From IMG/VR virus record IMGVR_UViG_3300002162_000001, positions 1 through 64,000 of that record: DNA of 64,000 nucleotides; one strand, written 5' to 3'. Each line of letters begins with the position of its first letter. The stretch's first letter is position 1. The notes under the pieces were generated by a model. It had not been told where the DNA came from. It made no database searches and saw only the letters and a program-made list of their open reading frames with translations. Positions 2,968 through 63,932 of this stretch are shown here, piece by piece. The translations under genes were made by a program, and so were the position numbers. The DNA comes from an uncultured virus (IMG/VR IMGVR_UViG_3300002162_000001) (lineage: Duplodnaviria > Heunggongvirae > Uroviricota > Caudoviricetes).

Positions 2968-4488
2968 TTAGAACGATATTTCGTTCCAATCAATTATAAC
3001 TCTAGTATCAGTCACACGCACCTTTTCAATAAAGAAATATGCTATTTTCTTTTTTTCTTCCATAGATAGTGTCTCCCATGCATCAACACTTTTTAGTAAA
3101 TCTTCCTTTGAATGTGTTCTATGTTTATTAACTACAACTTTACTTATTTCAGATATAAGAGTATTTTTTTCAGTATCTAATTTTTCTATTTTCTCATTCA
3201 CATACTTAGTTGTGATCTTACTCGCTTCTGCTAGTTGAGATATTAAGTTTTCAATTTGTCTATCAATTTCGATAATTTGTATTTTAGATTTGTTTGTTTG
3301 AGAATCCTCTATTTCTTGCTTAGGAAAATCATCATTTCTTATTTTTTCAACTATCTCAAATATATCTTCCTTTACAATTTTTTCTATATTTTCGGCATAC
3401 ATAGTTGTTTTAAATCCGTCACATATTTTTAAATTACTTTTACCCCTACAGCTAAGATATCGTTTATCTCTCGATACAACTACAGTCACTGTGTATCCAC
3501 AAGTTCCACATTTAATAAGTCCACTTAGCCAACTGTGTTTTCCTTTTCCTGCATTTTTGATTTGCTTATTAGCATCTAGTTTATATTGACAAGCCAACCA
3601 AGTGGAAGAATCTACAACACCCTCATGCAAAGCTATAGACAATGTATGATCAGTTACCTTAGTATATTTCCTTTCATTAGATTCTCGCTTGCCATATAAA
3701 TATAGTCCATTGATTCCTACGAATTCAGTTACATCATTGACTATATTGCAACCTTTGTTTTTATAATAGGAATATACATCGGCATCTCCCATTACATAAG
3801 CAGGACTTCTTAGGATTCTGCTTATTTTACAAGAATCCCATGCTCCTCCTTCTGCTGCTAAAATACCTTCAGTATTTAAATGATCACTAACCTTCCCCAA
3901 ACTCATATCAGTACTAGAATAAAGTTCATACATTTCTAATAATGATATGAGTTTAGTGTTGTCATTTTCAAAGGTATAAGTTTTTTTACCATTGACTTTT
4001 GTTTCTATTTTTATATAACCATAGGGCGCCCTTCCTCCCATATATAACCCTTTAGCTCCCCTGGCATAGTAATTATCCCTTACTCTTTTTTGTATCGTCT
4101 CACGCTCTAACTGAGCAAAAACCATGCAAATAGACAGCATGGCATTTCCCATAGGAGTGGAAGTATCAAATTTTTCATTACAACTGAGAAAACCAACTTC
4201 GTACTTTTTATAGTATTCTATGATATTAGAAAAGTCCAAAAGATTTCTACTTATTCTGTCAAGTTTATATACTATAACTTTGGTTATAAGTCCTTCTTTT
4301 ATGTCTTTTTCCATTTCTTTAAATTTAGGACGGTCTGTATTCTTTCCAGAGAAACCTTTATCTATGTATATCTTGATTTCACCATCTATAACTTCTCTCT
4401 TACAAGAATCAATTTGACTCTCAATAGATATACTATCTTTCTTATCAACAGATTGTCTTGCGTAAATAGCTATGGACATATTTATCAC
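2968..4488 (-). CDS. Large serine recombinase (integrase)
   Basis: 'AIYARQS', 'DKGFSGKNTDRP', 'YKLDRISR', recombinase domain, CxxC zinc ribbon, coiled coil; 506 aa. Confidence 0.95.
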   Translation of the reverse strand: MINMSIAIYARQSVDKKDSISIESQIDSCKREVIDGEIKIYIDKGFSGKNTDRPKFKEMEKDIKEGLITKVIVYKLDRISRNLLDFSNIIEYYKKYEVGFLSCNEKFDTSTPMGNAMLSICMVFAQLERETIQKRVRDNYYARGAKGLYMGGRAPYGYIKIETKVNGKKTYTFENDNTKLISLLEMYELYSSTDMSLGKVSDHLNTEGILAAEGGAWDSCKISRILRSPAYVMGDADVYSYYKNKGCNIVNDVTEFVGINGLYLYGKRESNERKYTKVTDHTLSIALHEGVVDSSTWLACQYKLDANKQIKNAGKGKHSWLSGLIKCGTCGYTVTVVVSRDKRYLSCRGKSNLKICDGFKTTMYAENIEKIVKEDIFEIVEKIRNDDFPKQEIEDSQTNKSKIQIIEIDRQIENLISQLAEASKITTKYVNEKIEKLDTEKNTLISEISKVVVNKHRTHSKEDLLKSVDAWETLSMEEKKKIAYFFIEKVRVTDTRVIIDWNEISF

Positions 4489-50398: not shown

Positions 50399-50830
50399 TC
50401 AATTCTCACCTACTTTACATTTACCTATCAAATGATCATATTCGTGCTGTATTACCCTTGCTGTAAATCCTGAGTAATTCTCTTTGACCATTTTTTTAGT
50501 CTTATAATCAAAATATTGAATTGTGATATCTTTGCTTCGTGCAATACTTTTGAATATTCCAGGATATGAAAGACATCCTTCTTTATCGATTTCTGTTTCT
50601 TCACTAAAATATGTAATCTTTGGATTGATAAATAATTTTACTCTACTTCCTATTTCTGCTAAGAAAAAAGTTTTATTTATTCCTACTTGATTAGCAGCTA
50701 TACCAACTCCATCATTAATTGTCATTATTTTAGTAATATGTGGAAACAATGCTACAACTCTACTTACCTCAAATATTTTAACCTTTTCACATACTTTTTT
50801 TAATTCTAATCTATCTGTTACTATATCCAT
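50399..50830 (-). CDS. def: Peptide deformylase (short phage type)
   Basis: 'GVGIAANQVG', 'EGCLS', 'QHEYDHL'. Confidence 0.93.
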   Translation of the reverse strand: MDIVTDRLELKKVCEKVKIFEVSRVVALFPHITKIMTINDGVGIAANQVGINKTFFLAEIGSRVKLFINPKITYFSEETEIDKEGCLSYPGIFKSIARSKDITIQYFDYKTKKMVKENYSGFTARVIQHEYDHLIGKCKVGEN

Positions 50831-56475: not shown

Positions 56476-57555
56476 TTACTCCTCCACAGCACCTCTTAAT
56501 TTATTAGCCGGAGTACTTTCAACTATATCATTAAGTCGTTTGTCCTCATCGGATATTTTGGCTCCTAAATCAGTATAAATCTGTGTTGTGCTAATGCGTT
56601 TTTGTCCTAACAACTCTTGTAGGTCTGACATATCTGCTAAACCATATTGATACATCAAGGTGGCTGCTGTATACCTTAATTTATATGTTGTAATACTGGA
56701 GTTATTTACACCAGATAAAGAAACATATTTCTTTATAGTATTTCCAATTTGTGATGTGGATATTCTATTTTCTTTCATACTTAAAAATAATGGAGCATTA
56801 GAATTTTCTATAATGTTATCTCTATTAATTAAATTTCTTTCTTGTAAGTATAATTTTAATGCTTCTATACATACATCATTTAAATATATAACTCGTTCTT
56901 CATCACCTCTACCAATAACTTTTAATGTTCTTTCAACTAATGATATTGAATTTAAGTTTATACTTGTCAATTCTGAAATTATTATGCCGCAATTTAAGAA
57001 TAATATTATCATGCAATAATTTCTGAGTCCATTTGGTTCAAATCTTCTATTCCATGCATCGTCTATATAAATATTCGTTTGATCTAAAGACATATGAACG
57101 TGATTTGGCTTAGGAATAGATATAGAATCTAATTCTCCAGCAATATTAAACTTAATTGATTTCTCTTTCTTATAAAGATATGTAAAAAATGATTTTAAAA
57201 TAGATACTTTTGTGCTTCTAGTCCCTATCTTATTATTCAATATATTTTCACAAAAATCAAAATATTTATCAATATCTTTTAAGGTAATAGACTGTATAAA
57301 TAGAGATTGAATACCCATAATTTCAACAACTGCACTTTTAAAAATTATATCTGAATTTATTTTCCCTCTAATAGAGATTGTTCTACTTTTATACAACTTC
57401 ATAAATTTAAAAAATTGGACTAAATTAGTTGTATATGAAGCAACCGTCCTTGGAGATTTGTTTTTTATTGTAGCTAAATAATTGACGAGTGATTCTGGAA
57501 GTTGTTCTCTCTTTTTATTAGCTATCTGAGCAACCTTACTTATTTTCTTTACCAT
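56476..57555 (-). CDS. XerC/XerS-like tyrosine recombinase with degenerate active site
   Basis: 'SPRTVASY', 'RNYCMIILFLNCGIIISEL', 'YKLRYTAAT', 'LLGQKRISTTQIYT'. Confidence 0.88.
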   Translation of the reverse strand: MVKKISKVAQIANKKREQLPESLVNYLATIKNKSPRTVASYTTNLVQFFKFMKLYKSRTISIRGKINSDIIFKSAVVEIMGIQSLFIQSITLKDIDKYFDFCENILNNKIGTRSTKVSILKSFFTYLYKKEKSIKFNIAGELDSISIPKPNHVHMSLDQTNIYIDDAWNRRFEPNGLRNYCMIILFLNCGIIISELTSINLNSISLVERTLKVIGRGDEERVIYLNDVCIEALKLYLQERNLINRDNIIENSNAPLFLSMKENRISTSQIGNTIKKYVSLSGVNNSSITTYKLRYTAATLMYQYGLADMSDLQELLGQKRISTTQIYTDLGAKISDEDKRLNDIVESTPANKLRGAVEE

Positions 57556-58686: not shown

Positions 58687-60345
58687 TTAAACAACCATAT
58701 CTTTAGTTATTTTTATTCTCTCAAACCCTATAGCAGCACTAGAACCTAAATAAGAACCAATATTCAATACTAGCCCTTGGAGTGAATAGAAACAGGTATT
58801 ACTCTTATAACTAATAGATACATAGGAATCATTTTCTCGAGACTTAACTATTCCAGTTTTATCCATATCTATATTCAGAAAGTTAATAGGATCTTGAACC
58901 TGTATCATCTCTACAGGATAAGTTTCACCGTCCTTCCAAATAAGTATATATAGGTAATAGGAATTTTTATATTGACTTGCTTTTTTAATTTCATTAATAG
59001 TCATAAAAAAATCAGATTTCAATGAATTGGCAGTCTTTACTTCTATCCTGCGAACTGTATTACTAGAATCATAAAGATCGTATCCGTATCTATCATCAAT
59101 TTTGTAAACTCTTTTGTCCCCATATTCTCTATTTAACATATCACATAAAAATTCTTCCCCGGATGCCCCTTTAGCAGTGTTTTTAGCCGCAAACTTACTT
59201 TCAAATCCATCGTCTTTTCTAGGTGGAACTATGTCTTTATCATCTCTCTCATAATTCTTATATTCTTCCAGTAAGTCATCTTTATTAGATTCTTCTAAAT
59301 TCTTGTAGTCTTCTTGTGATTCCTCAAATAAAATTTGATCCTCGAACTGCAAAAAATAGTTTGTCCTATTTTCGTTGAGTCCCCTAACATTCAAGTACAC
59401 TTTGTAATATTTATACATATTTATATAGTCGCGTATAGTGTTATGATTTTCAATGATTCCATTTTTACCTGATTTTAATTTACCATGATGATATAATATT
59501 GTGTTAATTTCATCAGAAGTCAATTCACGTTGTAAAGAATCTTCTTTGCTTTTTAACCCATCTAATATACCTGCAACTATTACCGTCCCAGGACACAATA
59601 CCTTTTCAATCATATCATCATCTTCATATTTAGCTAACTTATTTGATATATTATTAAATGATACCTGTGCTACTGATCCGTTACGTTTACCAAGCCTTGT
59701 ACGTCCCTTATCATTAATTTGAAATAATACTTCGCTTTTATTTGATAGTGTAATCCTTTTTAATATATCCATGCTTTTATTAGGTATATTGATTATTTTG
59801 CTGTCAAGTTTTATTGTGTTTTTATCAAAATCACAATCACTTATTTTCACTTCCTCAATTTCAGTTTTGGTTAAACCTTCATATGCTAATATAAGTGCTA
59901 CACAATCTCTGGGAATGGGCTGTATTCTTTCAATTATATTGTAGACATATTCTCTGTTTAATATAATTTGACCCCAAAAATAATTAAAGTATACATATCT
60001 CTCTATCTCATGTCTATCTTCTATAGAAACTAAATCTAAATTAGAATGAAATTTATTATTTAAATTTCCCCAAGTTATAAAACTAGTTAGTGCTGATTTA
60101 TAACTTGTATAGGACTTATATGACTCTAATTTCCTAAAATATGTTGCTATTTCTAACTCAGTAAACTCAAAGAACTGTTTATTGAGTTGTGATTCGTACT
60201 TAGCTAAAGAAGAAAATATTCTTCTTAAAGTTTTTTGCTTAGTTTCATCCCCATCTAATGTTCCAATGTATTCTTCTTTTAATCCTTTAGGTTTATAGGG
60301 CAAACCCCCTTTATAAGGTCTTCCAGCTCTTTTTTTCACTTCCAT
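58687..60345 (-). CDS. Integrase-fold (MrpR/YopR-like) protein fused to a DUF3883-type nuclease domain
   Basis: AT-hook-like 'RAGRP', 'RDCVALILAYEGL...EI..VK.SD'; C-terminal 'GASGEEF...GYDL...IEVK...FFMTINE'. Confidence 0.7.
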   Translation of the reverse strand: MEVKKRAGRPYKGGLPYKPKGLKEEYIGTLDGDETKQKTLRRIFSSLAKYESQLNKQFFEFTELEIATYFRKLESYKSYTSYKSALTSFITWGNLNNKFHSNLDLVSIEDRHEIERYVYFNYFWGQIILNREYVYNIIERIQPIPRDCVALILAYEGLTKTEIEEVKISDCDFDKNTIKLDSKIINIPNKSMDILKRITLSNKSEVLFQINDKGRTRLGKRNGSVAQVSFNNISNKLAKYEDDDMIEKVLCPGTVIVAGILDGLKSKEDSLQRELTSDEINTILYHHGKLKSGKNGIIENHNTIRDYINMYKYYKVYLNVRGLNENRTNYFLQFEDQILFEESQEDYKNLEESNKDDLLEEYKNYERDDKDIVPPRKDDGFESKFAAKNTAKGASGEEFLCDMLNREYGDKRVYKIDDRYGYDLYDSSNTVRRIEVKTANSLKSDFFMTINEIKKASQYKNSYYLYILIWKDGETYPVEMIQVQDPINFLNIDMDKTGIVKSRENDSYVSISYKSNTCFYSLQGLVLNIGSYLGSSAAIGFERIKITKDMVV

Positions 60346-60401: not shown

Positions 60402-60647
60402 TTACATCTCTCGACCAGTTCCATCACAGGCTCCACACTTTATATTGTTCCCATCTTTATCTGCGCTATCATNCCAGCCAGTTCCATTACAAGCAGTACA
60501 CTTAGCCTTATATAATCTCTTAGTTAGCTCATCTTGAACAGATTCAGCCCAATCACTATGAGAACCTTGTATTTCATATAAATCTTCAATCTTATTGAGA
60601 GCCTTTTGTAAGTTCGCTATCAACCATTCGTTAAATTCATTATCCAT
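60402..60647 (-). CDS. Small protein with DnaJ-type CxxCxGxG zinc finger
   Basis: 'CTACNGTG', 'CGACDGTG'. Confidence 0.65.
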   Translation of the reverse strand: MDNEFNEWLIANLQKALNKIEDLYEIQGSHSDWAESVQDELTKRLYKAKCTACNGTGWXDSADKDGNNIKCGACDGTGREM

Positions 60648-61131: not shown

Positions 61132-61160
61132 AAAGCAAAAGGGAGAATAAATCTCCCTTT
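61132..61160 (-). terminator. Intrinsic terminator after the pro-peptide gene
   Basis: AAAGGGAGA-loop-TCTCCCTTT then TGCTTT on the minus strand. Confidence 0.75.
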
Positions 61161-61168
61161 AAATCAGG

Positions 61169-61315
61169 TTATGAACCTGGTGGATCAACCAACATTTTTA
61201 TGTTCTTTTGATTTTTTGTTGCATCGGCACTTTTCTGAGCTGTTGCAACATTTAGCATAGTTATAACAACCAATACTACTATAATAATCTTTACGAATTT
61301 TCTTACGTTTCTCAT
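61169..61315 (-). CDS. Secreted signalling pro-peptide (AimP/Phr-like), 48 aa, not in ORF track
   Basis: AGGAGGTG RBS; MRNVRKFVKIIIVVLVVITMLNVATAQKSADATKNQKNIKMLVDPPGS* has a basic N-region, hydrophobic core, A-T-A cleavage site and Pro/Gly-rich C-terminus. Confidence 0.85.
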   Translation of the reverse strand: MRNVRKFVKIIIVVLVVITMLNVATAQKSADATKNQKNIKMLVDPPGS

Positions 61316-61369
61316 CTTTAATCACCTCCTTAAAAGTAGTTTATATAATAAAGGAGAACTTAATCCCCG

Positions 61370-61906
61370 TTATATGCTTTTATTTAAACCGTTTCTCATT
61401 TCTTCAAGAACGTCATTCTTTTTCATATCTCCAATATTATTAACTATGATTTTGAAATTCAATTCTTCGTATAGTCCAATATACTTCTTCATACCTTTTA
61501 CATCATTTAGCACCTTTGATCTGTTAAACATTGATATTAAAGCATAATTCTTTTCGCCCACAAGATTATAATAATCGATACATATATCAAACATTTCTAC
61601 GGATTCTTTTTTACATCCTAACTCATCGGCACATTCCCCAATTAGCCAGCAATTCATTACGAAATTATTATCTATTTTCGCACAATAATCTTTTGCTGTC
61701 TTCCCGAGATTATAAGCAGATTCTACTAATCCTAATTTTTTGTTTGCTACTGCTAGATTATAATTAGCCCACTGGAACTCATCGAATTGAAATGTATCTT
61801 TTAAATTATCTAAGTATTTAACACATAGCACACTCATTAATTCATAATCTTCTACAATTTTAGCTTTACGAATTTCCATCCTTTTCTCTTCATATATATC
61901 TAGCAT
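61370..61906 (-). CDS. Short TPR-repeat protein, candidate RRNPP-type peptide receptor without HTH
   Basis: TPR-like helices 'ANYNLAVANKKLGLVESAY', 'NCWLIGECADELGCKKESVEMF', 'SMFNRSK'; directly upstream of the pro-peptide. Confidence 0.7.
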   Translation of the reverse strand: MLDIYEEKRMEIRKAKIVEDYELMSVLCVKYLDNLKDTFQFDEFQWANYNLAVANKKLGLVESAYNLGKTAKDYCAKIDNNFVMNCWLIGECADELGCKKESVEMFDICIDYYNLVGEKNYALISMFNRSKVLNDVKGMKKYIGLYEELNFKIIVNNIGDMKKNDVLEEMRNGLNKSI

Positions 61907-62449
61907 TTATATTTCCTCCTCAATAAAATTTGTATAATCTTTATCTATTAACTTGCAGTATATTTTAAATTCTGAAATCTTTATTCTTATTTCATCATTC
62001 AATTCTCTGTCATTAATATTAAATTTCTTTTTAAATTTTTCTAACTCTTTAATACTATTGACCATACCTTCAATTCTTTGTTTCTGTATTATTTCAAAAT
62101 TGTCATTTCTTACTCCAAACTGATTGTTGATAGCTTGTAATATCGTGTCCATCTTCTGAGCGTTCACAAAGCCCACCTTAGACAGTAAATCAATTCTAGG
62201 AACTGTTCGTACTTGATTGCAAAGTACCATTGAATCGTGGTCTAAGCCACTCTCTATACCTATATGTATATTTGCAGGGTTTCTATTAAGTGTTGAAGTA
62301 ATAGGAACTATATTAATCAAATCACTGTTATCCATACTCTTTTTACAACTTAAAATTATAACTGGGTGCTTACCTTGAAGTAGTTCAAATGCCCCGTGTA
62401 ATTCTGCAATAAATATATCTGATCTTCTTACTAATTTATTATCGTTCAT
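61907..62449 (-). CDS. MazF/PemK-family protein with C-terminal helical extension
   Basis: 'RRSDIFIAEL...GKHPVIILS...IVPITS...DSMVLCNQVRTV...KVG'; GAGGTG RBS before ATG 62449 (track start 62494). Confidence 0.88.
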   Translation of the reverse strand: MNDNKLVRRSDIFIAELHGAFELLQGKHPVIILSCKKSMDNSDLINIVPITSTLNRNPANIHIGIESGLDHDSMVLCNQVRTVPRIDLLSKVGFVNAQKMDTILQAINNQFGVRNDNFEIIQKQRIEGMVNSIKELEKFKKKFNINDRELNDEIRIKISEFKIYCKLIDKDYTNFIEEEI

Positions 62450-62540
62450 AACGCACCTCTTTATTATTGTTTGAGGATGACACACATTTGCCATCCATAT
62501 ATATAATATTATTTAATATAACGTAATAATACAATATTAT

Positions 62541-62912
62541 TCATTTTGATTTCTTACAATTAAGACAATCCACGCAATGTTTATCACAACAATCTGTACT
62601 CATTTTTATGTCGTCGCTATACCAGTCGTACTTTTTTTCATCCTCTTTACTATAAATTTTCACCTCAGCTTCTTTCCTAAACTCACTGAGTACTCTTGCA
62701 ATTAATAGTTTATCTGAGGCCACTATATCTTCACCATTTATTTGACATATCGTAGCAACATTGTCTAACTCGTCCATACACATTGTAACCTCTAAGCTTG
62801 TCTTATCTATGTTAATAGGCACCACTAGGCATCTATTTGAGTTGTAGTTTTCCCCTTTTACTACAACCAATTTTTCTAACTTATCAAAATCTTTCTTTAA
62901 TAATTTTAACAT
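62541..62912 (-). CDS. Hypothetical protein with Cys-rich C-terminus
   Basis: 123 aa ending 'CCDKHCVDCLNCKK'. Confidence 0.6.
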   Translation of the reverse strand: MLKLLKKDFDKLEKLVVVKGENYNSNRCLVVPINIDKTSLEVTMCMDELDNVATICQINGEDIVASDKLLIARVLSEFRKEAEVKIYSKEDEKKYDWYSDDIKMSTDCCDKHCVDCLNCKKSK

Positions 62913-62996: not shown

Positions 62997-63932
62997 CTAA
63001 TCTATTGGATACATTTCCCTTGCAATAGTTCTTACCCAATTTATGCTAGTCTTGTTTGTAAGATTATATAATGCAGCTACGGTTTGTGTATCAAATATAT
63101 CAGCATTTTCTGGAGCTAGCAAATAAATCATTCTGCTTCTTGTAATATCCTCTAATGAAAGTCCTTCAATTTTAATTCCTTCACAGATTACTTGTCCATT
63201 TTTGAATAATTTTTGTAATGCTAGATTGGGTTGGTCTAAATATGTTTTTATAGAATCCTTACCTATCTTAGCTGGCTTACATAAATACTCAGAACTCTTA
63301 TATTCTATTTGTCTTCTCTTACCCACTACACTAACGCTTACTATAAATTTTTCTTTCATACAAAGTTTGATGTCTTCAATAATTTCTTGATCATCAATTC
63401 TTACGATTCTATTTTTTAAATGTAATATAGCAACATACAATCCAGTATTATCTTCATTAATTTCAATGTCAGATTCTTTTAATAATCTTATATCATCATT
63501 TGTTAAACTTGACCATGCTAATTCAAATATTATTTTATCTCTTACATTTATTCTCTTGCCATCTTCTTCTATATCTAATTGATTTTTGATATTAAGATAC
63601 TGTGAATAAGTTAATGTCTGATGTAGCAATTCTTCTCTATCTATACATTGCATTGTTACTCCATCATTGACAGCATACTCTCTAAGTGGTAATTTTTCTT
63701 TCTTACATATCATGTTGGCAAACTTTCTTAATACCTGCATTTTTTTATATAAAGAGTTAGGTGATACTGATTTAAATTGTTTTAAGAATGTAACTATCTG
63801 ATCATCTTCCCAATTTAGTAGTTCCACACCTGTAGTTTTCTCTGTCTCTATTATACTTTCTATTATCTGACCCATATTATTGATTTTATCATATATCTCT
63901 AAAAAATTCTTAGCATATTTTACTGTTAGCAT
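62997..63932 (-). CDS. Tyrosine-recombinase-fold protein, SPbeta MrpR/YopP-like, candidate repressor
   Basis: SAM-like N-terminus, 'RDKIIFELAWSSL...IRLLKESDI', 'DITRSRMI'; no canonical R/HxxR/H set. Confidence 0.6.
   Translation of the reverse strand: MLTVKYAKNFLEIYDKINNMGQIIESIIETEKTTGVELLNWEDDQIVTFLKQFKSVSPNSLYKKMQVLRKFANMICKKEKLPLREYAVNDGVTMQCIDREELLHQTLTYSQYLNIKNQLDIEEDGKRINVRDKIIFELAWSSLTNDDIRLLKESDIEINEDNTGLYVAILHLKNRIVRIDDQEIIEDIKLCMKEKFIVSVSVVGKRRQIEYKSSEYLCKPAKIGKDSIKTYLDQPNLALQKLFKNGQVICEGIKIEGLSLEDITRSRMIYLLAPENADIFDTQTVAALYNLTNKTSINWVRTIAREMYPID

What the first reader, a model, noticed from the sequence alone, without database searches (positions are those of the whole stretch)
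61132..62449. Non-canonical arbitrium-like operon: MazF-like protein, HTH-less TPR receptor and secreted 'DPPGS' pro-peptide
Seen: three co-oriented genes. The PemK/MazF-like gene abuts the 178-aa TPR gene (TAA then ATG). Next is a 48-aa ORF missed by the track, with a strong RBS, a Sec-type signal peptide and the C-terminus MLVDPPGS, followed by a terminator. Established: SPbeta-group arbitrium uses AimR (HTH plus TPR, about twice this length) and AimP. Some mature peptides are C-terminal and Pro/Gly-rich (e.g. EIKPGG), and SPbeta/phi3T lysis-lysogeny control acts through host MazF. Inference: this receptor has no DNA-binding domain and is coupled to a phage-encoded MazF-fold protein. The peptide may therefore act post-translationally, with the TPR protein binding or releasing the MazF-like protein as a peptide-gated antitoxin. 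That would be a quorum-sensing-controlled toxin switch in a probably clostridial phage.
Basis: partly seen in the sequence, partly recalled or inferred. Interest (0 to 1): 0.92.

Follow-up and report, generated by a model that had tools for sequence, protein, structure and literature searches.

The report
Peptide-sensing MazF nuclease cassette in phage
A large phage of a Clostridium-like host carries a small operon that looks like a cell-to-cell peptide signalling system whose receptor is wired to an RNA-cutting toxin domain instead of a DNA-binding domain, which would be a new way for phages to act on population density.

Summary
On the minus strand lie a MazF/PemK-fold gene (61907-62449), an abutting 178-aa TPR gene (61370-61906), a 48-aa ORF with a strong RBS, a signal-peptide-like N-terminus and the tail MLVDPPGS (61169-61315), and a hairpin.

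The three parts belong together. In relatives the MazF-like and TPR parts are one polypeptide: 3 metagenomic proteins and 7 ORFs in Clostridiaceae genomes. In 10 of 13 loci a small signal-peptide-like ORF follows the TPR stop within 16-56 nt. An eleventh locus keeps only the tail (TMIDPPGG). No other ORF of at least 100 aa (0 of 171) had such a neighbour. Peptide tails are Pro-rich and track the TPR clades. The DPP codons vary synonymously.

The MazF part keeps an invariant His/Thr/Ser set at the active-site positions, with His where MazF has Arg. The phage has no MazE.

Best reading (0.55): an RRNPP-like receptor-propeptide cassette whose effector is a nuclease, so the peptide gates a toxin after translation. 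It is not a member of the arbitrium family.

Peptide binding, export, nuclease activity and the direction of control are untested. I found no description of such a system in print.

The parts
61907..62449 (-). MazF/PemK-fold gene with a C-terminal helical extension of about 65 aa (180 aa; an alternative start at 62494 gives 195 aa). It corresponds to the N-terminal half of fused relatives.
   Evidence: PF02452 E 1.3e-15 and phrog_1936 E 2.5e-22. 46% identity over its whole length to the N-terminal halves of P0002 and P0004. His28 aligns with the Arg of the MazF 'RP' motif. His, Thr and Ser are invariant in 10 fusions.
61370..61906 (-). TPR protein of 178 aa (four TPR-like helix pairs plus a capping helix, no HTH). 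Its start codon abuts the MazF stop. Putative peptide receptor and regulator of the MazF-like part.
   Evidence: AF2 pLDDT 92.1. LGN 3ro3_A Z 18.2, KLC1 TMq about 0.7, RapI 4i1a_B Z 15.7. It aligns to the C-terminal halves of the fusions P0002, P0004 and P0005. Asn128 is invariant in 18 relatives.
61169..61315 (-). ORF of 48 aa: putative Sec-type propeptide (signal residues 1-26, ATA|Q; pro-region residues 27-48 = 61172-61237; tail MLVDPPGS).
   Evidence: RBS AAGGAGGTG at about 61323-61331, 54 nt after the TPR stop. An equivalent ORF is present in 10 of 13 loci, and a homologous tail TMIDPPGG in C. estertheticum. 0 of 171 other ORFs have such a neighbour.
61138..61160 (-). Terminator-like hairpin after the propeptide ORF.
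   Evidence: 9-bp stem, -13.9 kcal/mol, z -2.69. Not listed by the consensus scan.
62997..63932 (-). Context: MrpR-like (tyrosine-recombinase-like) gene of 311 aa, two genes upstream.
   Evidence: PF22822 MrpR_N_CB 20.6 bits (below the cut-off of 27) and phrog_5830 E 3.2e-6. A 45%-identical homologue lies just downstream of the cassette in L040.
58687..60345 (-). Context: second MrpR_N-like gene (552 aa) with a NOV_C nuclease-like C-terminal domain, downstream of the cassette.
   Evidence: PF22822 37 bits (cut-off 27), PF13020 E 1.1e-10 and phrog_5830 E 1e-14.
62541..62912 (-). Context: gene of 123 aa of unknown function directly upstream, possibly co-transcribed. Not conserved at related loci.
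   Evidence: No family hit. Atlas model of low confidence. No homologue in 12 related loci. A promoter-like site lies at 62961-62933, and none lies between this gene and the MazF-like gene on the minus strand.

Best explanation
This is a peptide-signalling cassette built like an RRNPP/Rap-Phr system, that is, a cytoplasmic TPR receptor with an adjacent exported propeptide. Its effector domain is a MazF/PemK-fold nuclease rather than an HTH or a Rap-type helix bundle. In this phage the receptor is split into two translationally coupled genes (MazF-like plus linker, and TPR). In relatives it is one polypeptide.

Proposed mechanism:
1. The 48-aa precursor is exported by Sec and cut after ATA.
2. 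Its C-terminal Pro-rich end (about DPPGS) is trimmed outside the cell and re-imported.
3. The peptide binds the concave face of the TPR domain.
4. That binding changes how the TPR and linker hold the MazF-like domain, switching its RNA-cleaving activity.

My preferred direction is that the free TPR keeps the nuclease off and the peptide at high density turns it on, favouring lysogeny or growth arrest. This is by analogy with phi3T, where active MazF at high arbitrium signal is needed for lysogeny. I hold the direction at only about even odds.

Shown here: the three parts are real and evolutionarily linked; the folds; conserved active-site-position residues; prophage context.

Inferred: export, processing, binding, nuclease activity, direction and biological role.
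For: 1. Fusion. Of the 23 proteins with E <= 1e-3 among 1.84 billion representatives, 3 (P0002 360 aa, P0004 381 aa, P0005 309 aa) carry the MazF-like part N-terminal to the TPR part. The window's MazF-like protein aligns end to end with their N-terminal halves at 46% identity. Seven more fused ORFs of 312-332 aa occur in Clostridiaceae genomes.

2. Conserved propeptide. In 10 of 13 loci (the window plus all 12 family-type places), a co-oriented small ORF with a basic and hydrophobic N-terminus follows the TPR stop within 16-56 nt. Most have an AxA-like site. An eleventh locus (C. estertheticum) keeps the tail TMIDPPGG, against the window's KMLVDPPGS. A fixed script criterion scored 7 of 13 module genes and 0 of 171 other ORFs of at least 100 aa.

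3. Selection on the peptide. DPP is written GAT CCA CCA, GAC CCT CCT, GAT CCC CCA, GAT CCA CCT and GAT CCA CCG. Tails fall into classes that follow the TPR clades: DPPG[SG]; DPPM, in three copies in L040; TD[SG]PIVWSIK..; GGGG..P.

4. Architecture. The order is N-terminal effector then C-terminal TPR, as described for RNPP proteins (passages of PMC3601957). An invariant Asn lies in helix A of the fourth TPR-like pair. That paper reports a strictly conserved peptide-backbone-binding Asn from TPR4 of RapF.

5. Effector. His, Thr-Ser and Ser are invariant in 10 fusions of 20-38% identity, at the positions aligned with the MazF RP and T motifs.

6. No separate antitoxin. PF04014 finds nothing in the 121,966-bp phage, and the upstream genes differ between loci.

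7. Modularity. In L043 an HNH nuclease (PF01844, E 9e-12) takes the place of MazF in front of the TPR gene and a signal-peptide ORF.

8. Context. The window lies in a complete DTR phage with two MrpR_N-like genes beside the cassette. The related loci carry integrases, CI-like repressors, replication and tail genes.
Against: - No experiment and no computation here shows peptide export, peptide binding or nuclease activity.
- The window's TPR protein has no TPR HMM hit. Its fold matches are to generic peptide-binding TPRs (LGN, KLC). RapI is only rank 11 among them, so homology to RRNPP receptors is not established.
- The profile's hits to clostridial HTH-TPR proteins (E about 1e-10) are hardly better than its hits to ordinary 305-aa TPR proteins (E about 1e-8).
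- The Arg of the MazF RP motif is replaced by His, so the domain may not be an RNase of the known kind.
- Two of 13 loci (L044, L045, both split and with the canonical RP) have no peptide ORF. One (L046) has the tail but no recognisable signal sequence or canonical start for one.
- In the AF2 model of a fusion the domain packing is unreliable (pTM 0.53, linker pLDDT 55-65).
- DNA context could be obtained for only 1 of the 20 relatives that I kept (the 2 long multi-repeat hits were dropped).
Confidence: 0.55

Rival explanations
1. It is a toxin-antitoxin or abortive-infection module. The TPR part is simply the cis or trans antitoxin, or a sensor of a phage or host protein. The small ORF is a secreted or membrane protein with its own job, such as superinfection exclusion, that travels with the module but is not its ligand.
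For: The MazF fold has no MazE in the phage. The TPR is fused or translationally coupled, as a cis-acting inhibitor could be. The two loci with canonical RP MazF have a TPR gene but no peptide. phrog_15667 'superinfection exclusion' is a faint hit of the 48-aa ORF (E 0.074).
Against: The small ORF is kept through fusion and fission and through a swap of the nuclease domain (HNH in L043). Its tail co-varies with the TPR clade. The tails are short, Pro-rich and at the extreme C-terminus, and are repeated three times in L040, as in signalling propeptides rather than membrane proteins. 0 of 171 other ORFs have such a neighbour.
Confidence: 0.17
2. The peptide is the ligand, but it acts inside the producing cell without a round trip. 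The TPR binds the free C-terminus of the unexported precursor, or of a leaderless form. The nuclease would then report on the precursor's synthesis, secretion or turnover rather than on cell density.
For: The C. estertheticum copy encodes only 22 aa from its ATG and has no canonical start for a signal sequence. The conserved motifs sit at the very C-terminus, which many TPR domains clamp (KLC and Hsp70/90-type matches).
Against: Ten of 13 loci keep a full basic and hydrophobic leader, mostly with an AxA-like site, which would be needless for an intracellular ligand. The C. estertheticum reading frame upstream of the ATG still reads like the remnant of a hydrophobic core, so that copy may be decayed.
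Confidence: 0.1
3. The MazF-fold domain is not a nuclease here. It would be an RNA- or protein-binding adaptor, and the cassette would regulate another target, for example a lysogeny regulator such as the neighbouring MrpR-like proteins, by sequestration as Rap proteins do.
For: The catalytic-position Arg is replaced by His. A long helical extension follows the domain. MrpR-like genes recur near the cassette in the window, L040, L044 and L045.
Against: His, Thr-Ser and Ser at the active-site positions are invariant across fusions of 20-38% identity, which is what a working catalytic site looks like. An HNH nuclease can take the domain's place, which argues that nuclease activity is the output.
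Confidence: 0.13

Closest known systems
RRNPP (RNPP) quorum-sensing systems, especially Rap-Phr
   Same: A cytoplasmic receptor with an N-terminal effector and a C-terminal peptide-binding TPR domain. A small Sec-type propeptide gene lies directly downstream, with the active part at its C-terminal end. Intragenic repeats of the mature peptide occur (L040). Rap also lacks an HTH and acts on proteins after translation. (Passages of PMC3601957; signature criteria in PMC10075063.)
   Different: The effector is a MazF/PemK-fold or, in one locus, an HNH nuclease domain. There are only about four TPR pairs (178 aa) against seven in Rap. The window's receptor is split into two genes and falls below the 250-500 aa range. 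There is no detectable sequence homology to Rap, NprR, PlcR, PrgX or AimR, and the fold match is not specific.
Arbitrium (AimR-AimP-AimX) of SPbeta-group phages, acting through host MazF
   Same: A phage-borne receptor plus a downstream propeptide, in a large temperate phage beside MrpR-like genes. In phi3T a high signal leaves MazF active, and that activity is needed for lysogenisation (abstract of 10.1101/2023.04.27.537455). MrpR is the SPbeta master repressor (search listing and abstract start of PMC10516654).
   Different: There is no HTH, no AimR homology and no AimX. No match of the TPR protein was found in 50,697 phage records. Here the MazF-fold protein is encoded by the phage itself and is physically joined to the receptor, so no transcriptional step is needed.
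MazEF with the 'extracellular death factor' peptides
   Same: An extracellular peptide is reported to raise MazF endoribonuclease activity (abstract starts of PMC3668371 and PMC5930309).
   Different: EDF peptides are not encoded beside mazF, are not Sec propeptides and are said to act on MazF itself. Here a dedicated TPR domain and a dedicated adjacent propeptide gene exist, and no MazE does.
Canonical type II MazF/PemK toxins
   Same: The PemK_toxin domain scores above Pfam's cut-off. It aligns over about 105 residues with solved MazF proteins at E 1e-7 to 7e-5.
   Different: His replaces the Arg of the RP motif. There is a 65-aa helical C-terminal extension or a fusion to TPR. No upstream antitoxin gene is conserved.

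Membership tests
RRNPP quorum-sensing systems (signature of PMC10075063) | Small propeptide gene (10-100 aa) | tested here: met
   48 aa in the window and 33-70 aa in 9 related loci.
RRNPP quorum-sensing systems (signature of PMC10075063) | Propeptide secreted through Sec (SignalP in the published signature) | tested here: inconclusive
   No SignalP was available. By my own heuristic there is a basic N-terminus, a hydrophobic core (KD maximum 4.3) and ATA|Q. Similar features occur in 10 of 13 loci. One locus lacks them.
RRNPP quorum-sensing systems (signature of PMC10075063) | Receptor of 250-500 aa | tested here: not met
   The window's TPR protein is 178 aa. The fused relatives of 309-381 aa do fall in the range.
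RRNPP quorum-sensing systems (signature of PMC10075063) | Receptor carries TPRs detectable by HMM | tested here: not met
   No Pfam or NCBIfam TPR hit for the window protein. Relatives have only weak hits below the cut-offs. By structure it is a TPR domain.
RRNPP quorum-sensing systems (signature of PMC10075063) | Receptor and propeptide genes are direct neighbours | tested here: met
   The gap is 54 nt on the same strand, and 16-56 nt in the 9 other loci with a signal-like ORF.
RRNPP quorum-sensing systems | Homology of the TPR domain to Rap, NprR, PlcR, PrgX, Rgg or AimR | tested here: inconclusive
   RapI 4i1a_B has Z 15.7 (rmsd 2.6, 166 aligned) at rank 11, among unrelated TPRs with Z 14-18. 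No RRNPP receptor appears in the Foldseek list shown. No PDB sequence hit except 4i17_A at E 0.14.
RRNPP quorum-sensing systems | The mature peptide binds the receptor and changes its output | not testable with these tools
   Needs binding and activity assays.
Arbitrium (AimR-AimP-AimX) | AimR-type receptor: N-terminal HTH plus TPR, about 380 aa, homologous to AimR | tested here: not met
   No HTH family hit, and the protein is 178 aa. tblastn of the TPR protein against 50,697 phage records gave no match at E <= 0.01. The length of about 380 aa is recalled.
Arbitrium (AimR-AimP-AimX) | aimX-type output gene downstream, under AimR control | not tested
   Downstream lie a hairpin and then a 65-aa zinc-ribbon ORF. 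No test for AimX likeness was made.
MazF/PemK type II toxin | PemK_toxin domain | tested here: met
   PF02452 scores 58 bits against a cut-off of 23.1, over residues 8-110. Solved MazF proteins match at E 1.4e-7 and weaker.
MazF/PemK type II toxin | Catalytic Arg of the RP motif and the downstream Thr (roles recalled from B. subtilis MazF, not from a call) | tested here: not met
   Arg is replaced by His (GKHP against GVRP). The Thr position is kept (ITS). His, Thr and Ser are invariant in 10 fusions.
MazF/PemK type II toxin | Cognate MazE/PemI antitoxin gene next to it | tested here: not met
   PF04014 gives 0 matches in the whole phage record, while the control genomes ring. The upstream genes are not conserved among the 13 loci. 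Other antitoxin folds were not searched.

The most novel reading that the evidence does not exclude
A quorum-sensing receptor whose direct output is RNA (or DNA) cleavage. Temperate clostridial phages and prophages would secrete a short Pro-rich peptide. Once re-imported, it binds a TPR domain that is fused or coupled to a MazF-fold nuclease, or in one lineage to an HNH nuclease, and switches it on or off. Lysis-lysogeny, superinfection or kin protection would then be decided post-transcriptionally, with no DNA-binding regulator. This would be a one-protein short cut of the arbitrium -> AimX -> MazF route.
Probability: 0.4. Interest if true: 0.9.

Novelty: new variant of a known kind. Interest (0 to 1): 0.82.

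Why it matters
Known peptide receptors of Gram-positive bacteria and their phages end in a DNA-binding domain or in Rap's protein-binding bundle. A receptor ending in a toxin-type nuclease would add a new output class to this signalling family. It would give a direct molecular link between phage communication and MazF-type RNases, which so far is known only indirectly in phi3T.

It would also extend phage communication to large clostridial phages and prophages. The published detection signature (receptor of 250-500 aa with TPR HMM hits) would miss the split form.

The system is small and directly testable: two or three genes and a synthetic peptide.

Tried and rejected
**Complex prediction.** TPR (18-row alignment) with residues 19-48 of the precursor gave no verdict (score 0.01 against a mark of 0.32; controls not run). 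It says nothing either way.

**Searches for close relatives that found nothing usable:**
- Word-based protein search found only the protein itself.
- Viral-contig scans with the TPR, MazF-like, P0005 and P0010 proteins found nothing. The one hit, L003, is a terminase-like ORF and a false lead.
- Metagenome-contig scans with P0005 and P0010 found nothing.
- blastn and tblastn of the region and of the TPR protein against phage records gave no match.
- The MazF-like protein gave only 12 distant phage hits covering the MazF part.

**Class-wide genome search with the fusion profile.** 323 of 399 genomes matched, but apart from the C. estertheticum locus all listed matches cover only the MazF part, that is, ordinary chromosomal MazF. 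No further cassette was found in that sample.

**Weaker hits, checked and set aside.**
- XRE-HTH+TPR proteins of about 435 aa: 6 loci read, 1 scanned with Pfam.
- All-TPR proteins of about 305 aa: 10 read.

**Defence library.** PADLOC gave no hit for the three proteins.

**Fusion model.** The inter-domain geometry is not usable (pTM 0.53).

**Sequencing runs.** No RNA holder is listed. Two peat-metagenome DNA runs are held as contigs only, and one of them may be the source sample. The laid contigs added nothing on the operon.

**Earlier findings of this scan.** None.

**Upstream 123-aa protein.** No usable Atlas lead.

**HNH protein of L043.** Its C-terminal extension shows no sequence likeness to the MazF-like protein's extension.

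**RiPP or bacteriocin precursor reading.** Considered and dropped, because no modifying, transport or immunity genes lie nearby.
Full report
**What is there**

The window is the first 64 kb of a complete 121,966-bp virus record with direct terminal repeats. It has 30% G+C.

On the minus strand, 62449 to 61132 holds three genes and a hairpin:
- A MazF/PemK-fold gene, 61907-62449. It matches PF02452 at E 1.3e-15 and phrog_1936 'MazF-like growth inhibitor' at E 2.5e-22.
- A 178-aa gene, 61370-61906. Its ATG follows the TAA of the first gene directly, with GAGGAGG just upstream.
- A 48-aa ORF, 61169-61315, which starts 54 nt further on, behind AAGGAGGTG. It has a basic and hydrophobic N-terminus, ATA|Q, and the tail MLVDPPGS.
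- A 9-bp hairpin, 61138-61160 (-13.9 kcal/mol, z -2.69). The consensus terminator scan did not list it.

The middle protein has no Pfam or NCBIfam hit, but it is a TPR domain by structure. AF2 gave pLDDT 92.1 and nine helices. Foldseek's best matches are KLC1/2 and LGN TPR domains. VIA-align gives LGN Z 18.2 and RapI Z 15.7 at rank 11.

**The MazF-like and TPR genes are one unit**

A full HMMER scan of 1.84 billion representatives gave 23 proteins at E <= 1e-3:
- the protein itself;
- 17 stand-alone proteins of 181-234 aa;
- 2 long multi-repeat TPR proteins, which I dropped;
- 3 proteins of 309-381 aa in which the TPR part is the C-terminal half.

Their N-terminal halves are the MazF-like protein. 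It is 46% identical over its whole 180 residues, helical extension included.

The closest stand-alone relative (51%) is from Clostridium estertheticum. There a 181-aa MazF-like gene precedes it by 6 nt.

I then searched 401 genomes sampled from that genome's family with the TPR profile; 390 were scored. This gave 12 family-type places in 9 genomes, and I fetched all 12:
- 7 fused ORFs of 312-332 aa;
- 3 split pairs;
- 1 TPR gene behind an HNH nuclease gene (PF01844);
- 1 TPR gene alone beside an integrase remnant.

The many weaker hits are XRE-HTH+TPR proteins of about 435 aa and ordinary TPR proteins of about 305 aa. They are not members.

A class-wide sample of 399 scored genomes, searched with the fusion profile, found only ordinary MazF genes apart from the C. 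estertheticum locus. The cassette is therefore rare and, as far as sampled, confined to Clostridiaceae.

**The small ORF is conserved and co-varies with the receptor**

- In 10 of 13 loci (the window plus the 12), a co-oriented ORF of 33-70 aa with a basic and hydrophobic start follows the TPR stop within 16-56 nt. Most have an AxA-like site.
- The C. estertheticum locus keeps a 22-aa ORF ending TMIDPPGG, against the window's KMLVDPPGS. It has no canonical start for a leader.
- Two split loci, both with a canonical MazF RP motif, have none.
- A fixed script criterion scored 7 of 13 module genes and 0 of 171 other ORFs of at least 100 aa in the same sequences.

The tails are Pro-rich and fall into classes that follow the TPR clades:

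| Loci | TPR identity within clade | Tail |
|---|---|---|
| window, L046 | 48% | DPPG[SG] |
| L038, L040 | 52% | DPPM(P) |
| L035, L036, L039 | 66-75% | TD[SG]PIVWSIK.P.V.K |
| L037, L041 | 65% | GGGG..P.. |

L040 has three copies of its unit. The DPP codons differ synonymously between copies, so the peptide, not the DNA, is conserved.

**Domains**

- *Active-site positions.* Against solved MazF proteins, the window's GKHP aligns with GVRP, and ITS with the conserved Thr region. The catalytic roles of that Arg and Thr are recalled, not taken from a call. In an alignment of 10 fusions of 20-38% identity, His, Thr-Ser and one more Ser are invariant in the MazF part. This suggests a working site with His in place of Arg.
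- *Antitoxin.* No MazE (PF04014) is encoded anywhere in the phage. The upstream genes differ between loci.
- *TPR.* One Asn (Asn128) is invariant in 18 relatives. It lies in helix A of the fourth helix pair. A strictly conserved Asn from TPR4 of RapF binds the peptide backbone in RNPP proteins (passages of PMC3601957). I did not establish that the two positions are equivalent.
- *Fusion model.* The AF2 model of a fusion is good per domain but not for their packing (pTM 0.53).

**Context**

- The phage encodes a large serine recombinase, a tyrosine integrase, its own DNA polymerase, helicase, primase and ligase, NrdDG and several HNH endonucleases.
- Two genes with an MrpR-type N-terminal domain flank the cassette. 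The gene at 58687-60345 scores 37 bits against a cut-off of 27. The gene at 62997-63932 scores 20.6 bits, below the cut-off, with phrog_5830 at E 3e-6.
- MrpR is the master repressor of SPbeta (search listing and abstract start of PMC10516654).
- A 45%-identical homologue follows the cassette in L040. phrog_5830 proteins lie near it in L044 and L045.
- The other loci carry integrases, CI-like repressors, replication initiators and, in L039 and L043, tail genes. The cassette therefore sits in early or lysogeny regions of prophages and related elements.

**Mechanism**

The anatomy is that of an RRNPP system: an N-terminal effector, a C-terminal TPR, and an adjacent exported propeptide with the active part at its C-terminus. 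The effector, however, is a nuclease domain.

I therefore propose that the processed tail peptide binds the TPR groove and thereby gates the MazF-like nuclease after translation (0.55). The direction is open. I lean to 'peptide turns the nuclease on', because in phi3T MazF stays active at high arbitrium signal and that activity is needed for lysogenisation (abstract of 10.1101/2023.04.27.537455).

Rivals:
- a toxin-antitoxin or abortive-infection module with an unrelated secreted protein (0.17);
- an intracellular, unexported ligand (0.10);
- a non-catalytic MazF fold acting as an adaptor (0.13).

**Comparison and novelty**

- It works like Rap-Phr or arbitrium, but it fails membership of arbitrium: no HTH, no AimR likeness, and no hit in 50,697 phage records.
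- It meets only part of the published RRNPP signature. The window's receptor is too short and has no TPR HMM hit.
- It is a divergent MazF: His replaces Arg, it carries an extension or fusion, and it has no MazE.
- I found no MazF/PemK-TPR-propeptide system in four full-text searches. None appears in the RRNPP_detector paper's text or its one held supplementary file, or in the text of PMC12700828. Other supplements and subscription journals were not visible.
- I rate it a new variant of a known kind.

Noticed in passing
L043:5337-6640 (G144:C2): Same TPR gene plus a downstream signal-peptide ORF (tail YVILPPH, followed by a hairpin), but the upstream partner is a 208-aa HNH nuclease (PF01844, E 9e-12) with a long helical extension instead of a MazF-like protein. 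This suggests interchangeable nuclease effectors.
   Followed up: partly
L036, L038, L039 (G283: C1, C5, C18): One genome carries three cassettes. Two of them (L036, L039; TPR parts 66% identical) have nearly the same peptide tail (TDSPIVWSIKQPTVSK and TDGPIVWSIKKPQVTK), so cross-talk between two elements in one cell is conceivable.
   Followed up: no
L046:7163-7345(-), L040:5325-5516(+), L036:7040-7225(-): A conserved ORF of about 60 aa (58-59% identity, no family hit) lies directly upstream of the MazF-like gene in 3 of 13 loci but not in the window. It is a possible small antitoxin-like or regulatory partner.
   Followed up: partly
L002:4566-4685 (= L046, C. estertheticum): The propeptide homologue has only 22 codons from its ATG. 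The in-frame stretch upstream reads like a hydrophobic core but has no ATG, GTG or TTG. It is either a decayed leader or an unusual start.
   Followed up: partly
window 58687-60345 (-): A 552-aa protein combines an MrpR-type N-terminal core-binding domain with a C-terminal NOV_C (PF13020) nuclease-like domain. It has weak PADLOC hits to PDC-S36 and TmtA. This is an unusual repressor-like fusion next to the cassette.
   Followed up: no
window 60402-60647 (-), N at 60473: The window's single N falls inside an 81-aa ORF with a DnaJ-type or anti-TRAP-like CxxCxGxG zinc motif (phrog_12902, E 9e-9).
   Followed up: no
L015:11-2559 (G233:C73) and other loci: XRE-HTH+TPR proteins of about 435 aa are widespread in the sampled Clostridiaceae. 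In L015 two paralogues stand in tandem. I did not check them for adjacent propeptides, and they may be ordinary RRNPP-type regulators.
   Followed up: no
L035:10154-11530, L041:640-3396, L046:67-3054: A large protein of phrog_8308 (unknown function, E down to 5e-252) recurs a few kb from the cassette in 3 of 12 related loci.
   Followed up: no
window 50399-50830 (-) and 2968-4488 (-): The phage encodes a peptide deformylase homologue (phrog_2890, E 4e-32). It also has a large serine recombinase in addition to a tyrosine integrase (56476-57555).
   Followed up: no
window 61631-61753: In run X1 (peat metagenome, possibly the source sample), a short contig of 172 nt lies on the TPR gene with 23 differences in 123 bases. 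This hints at a diverged second allele or relative in the same sample.
   Followed up: no
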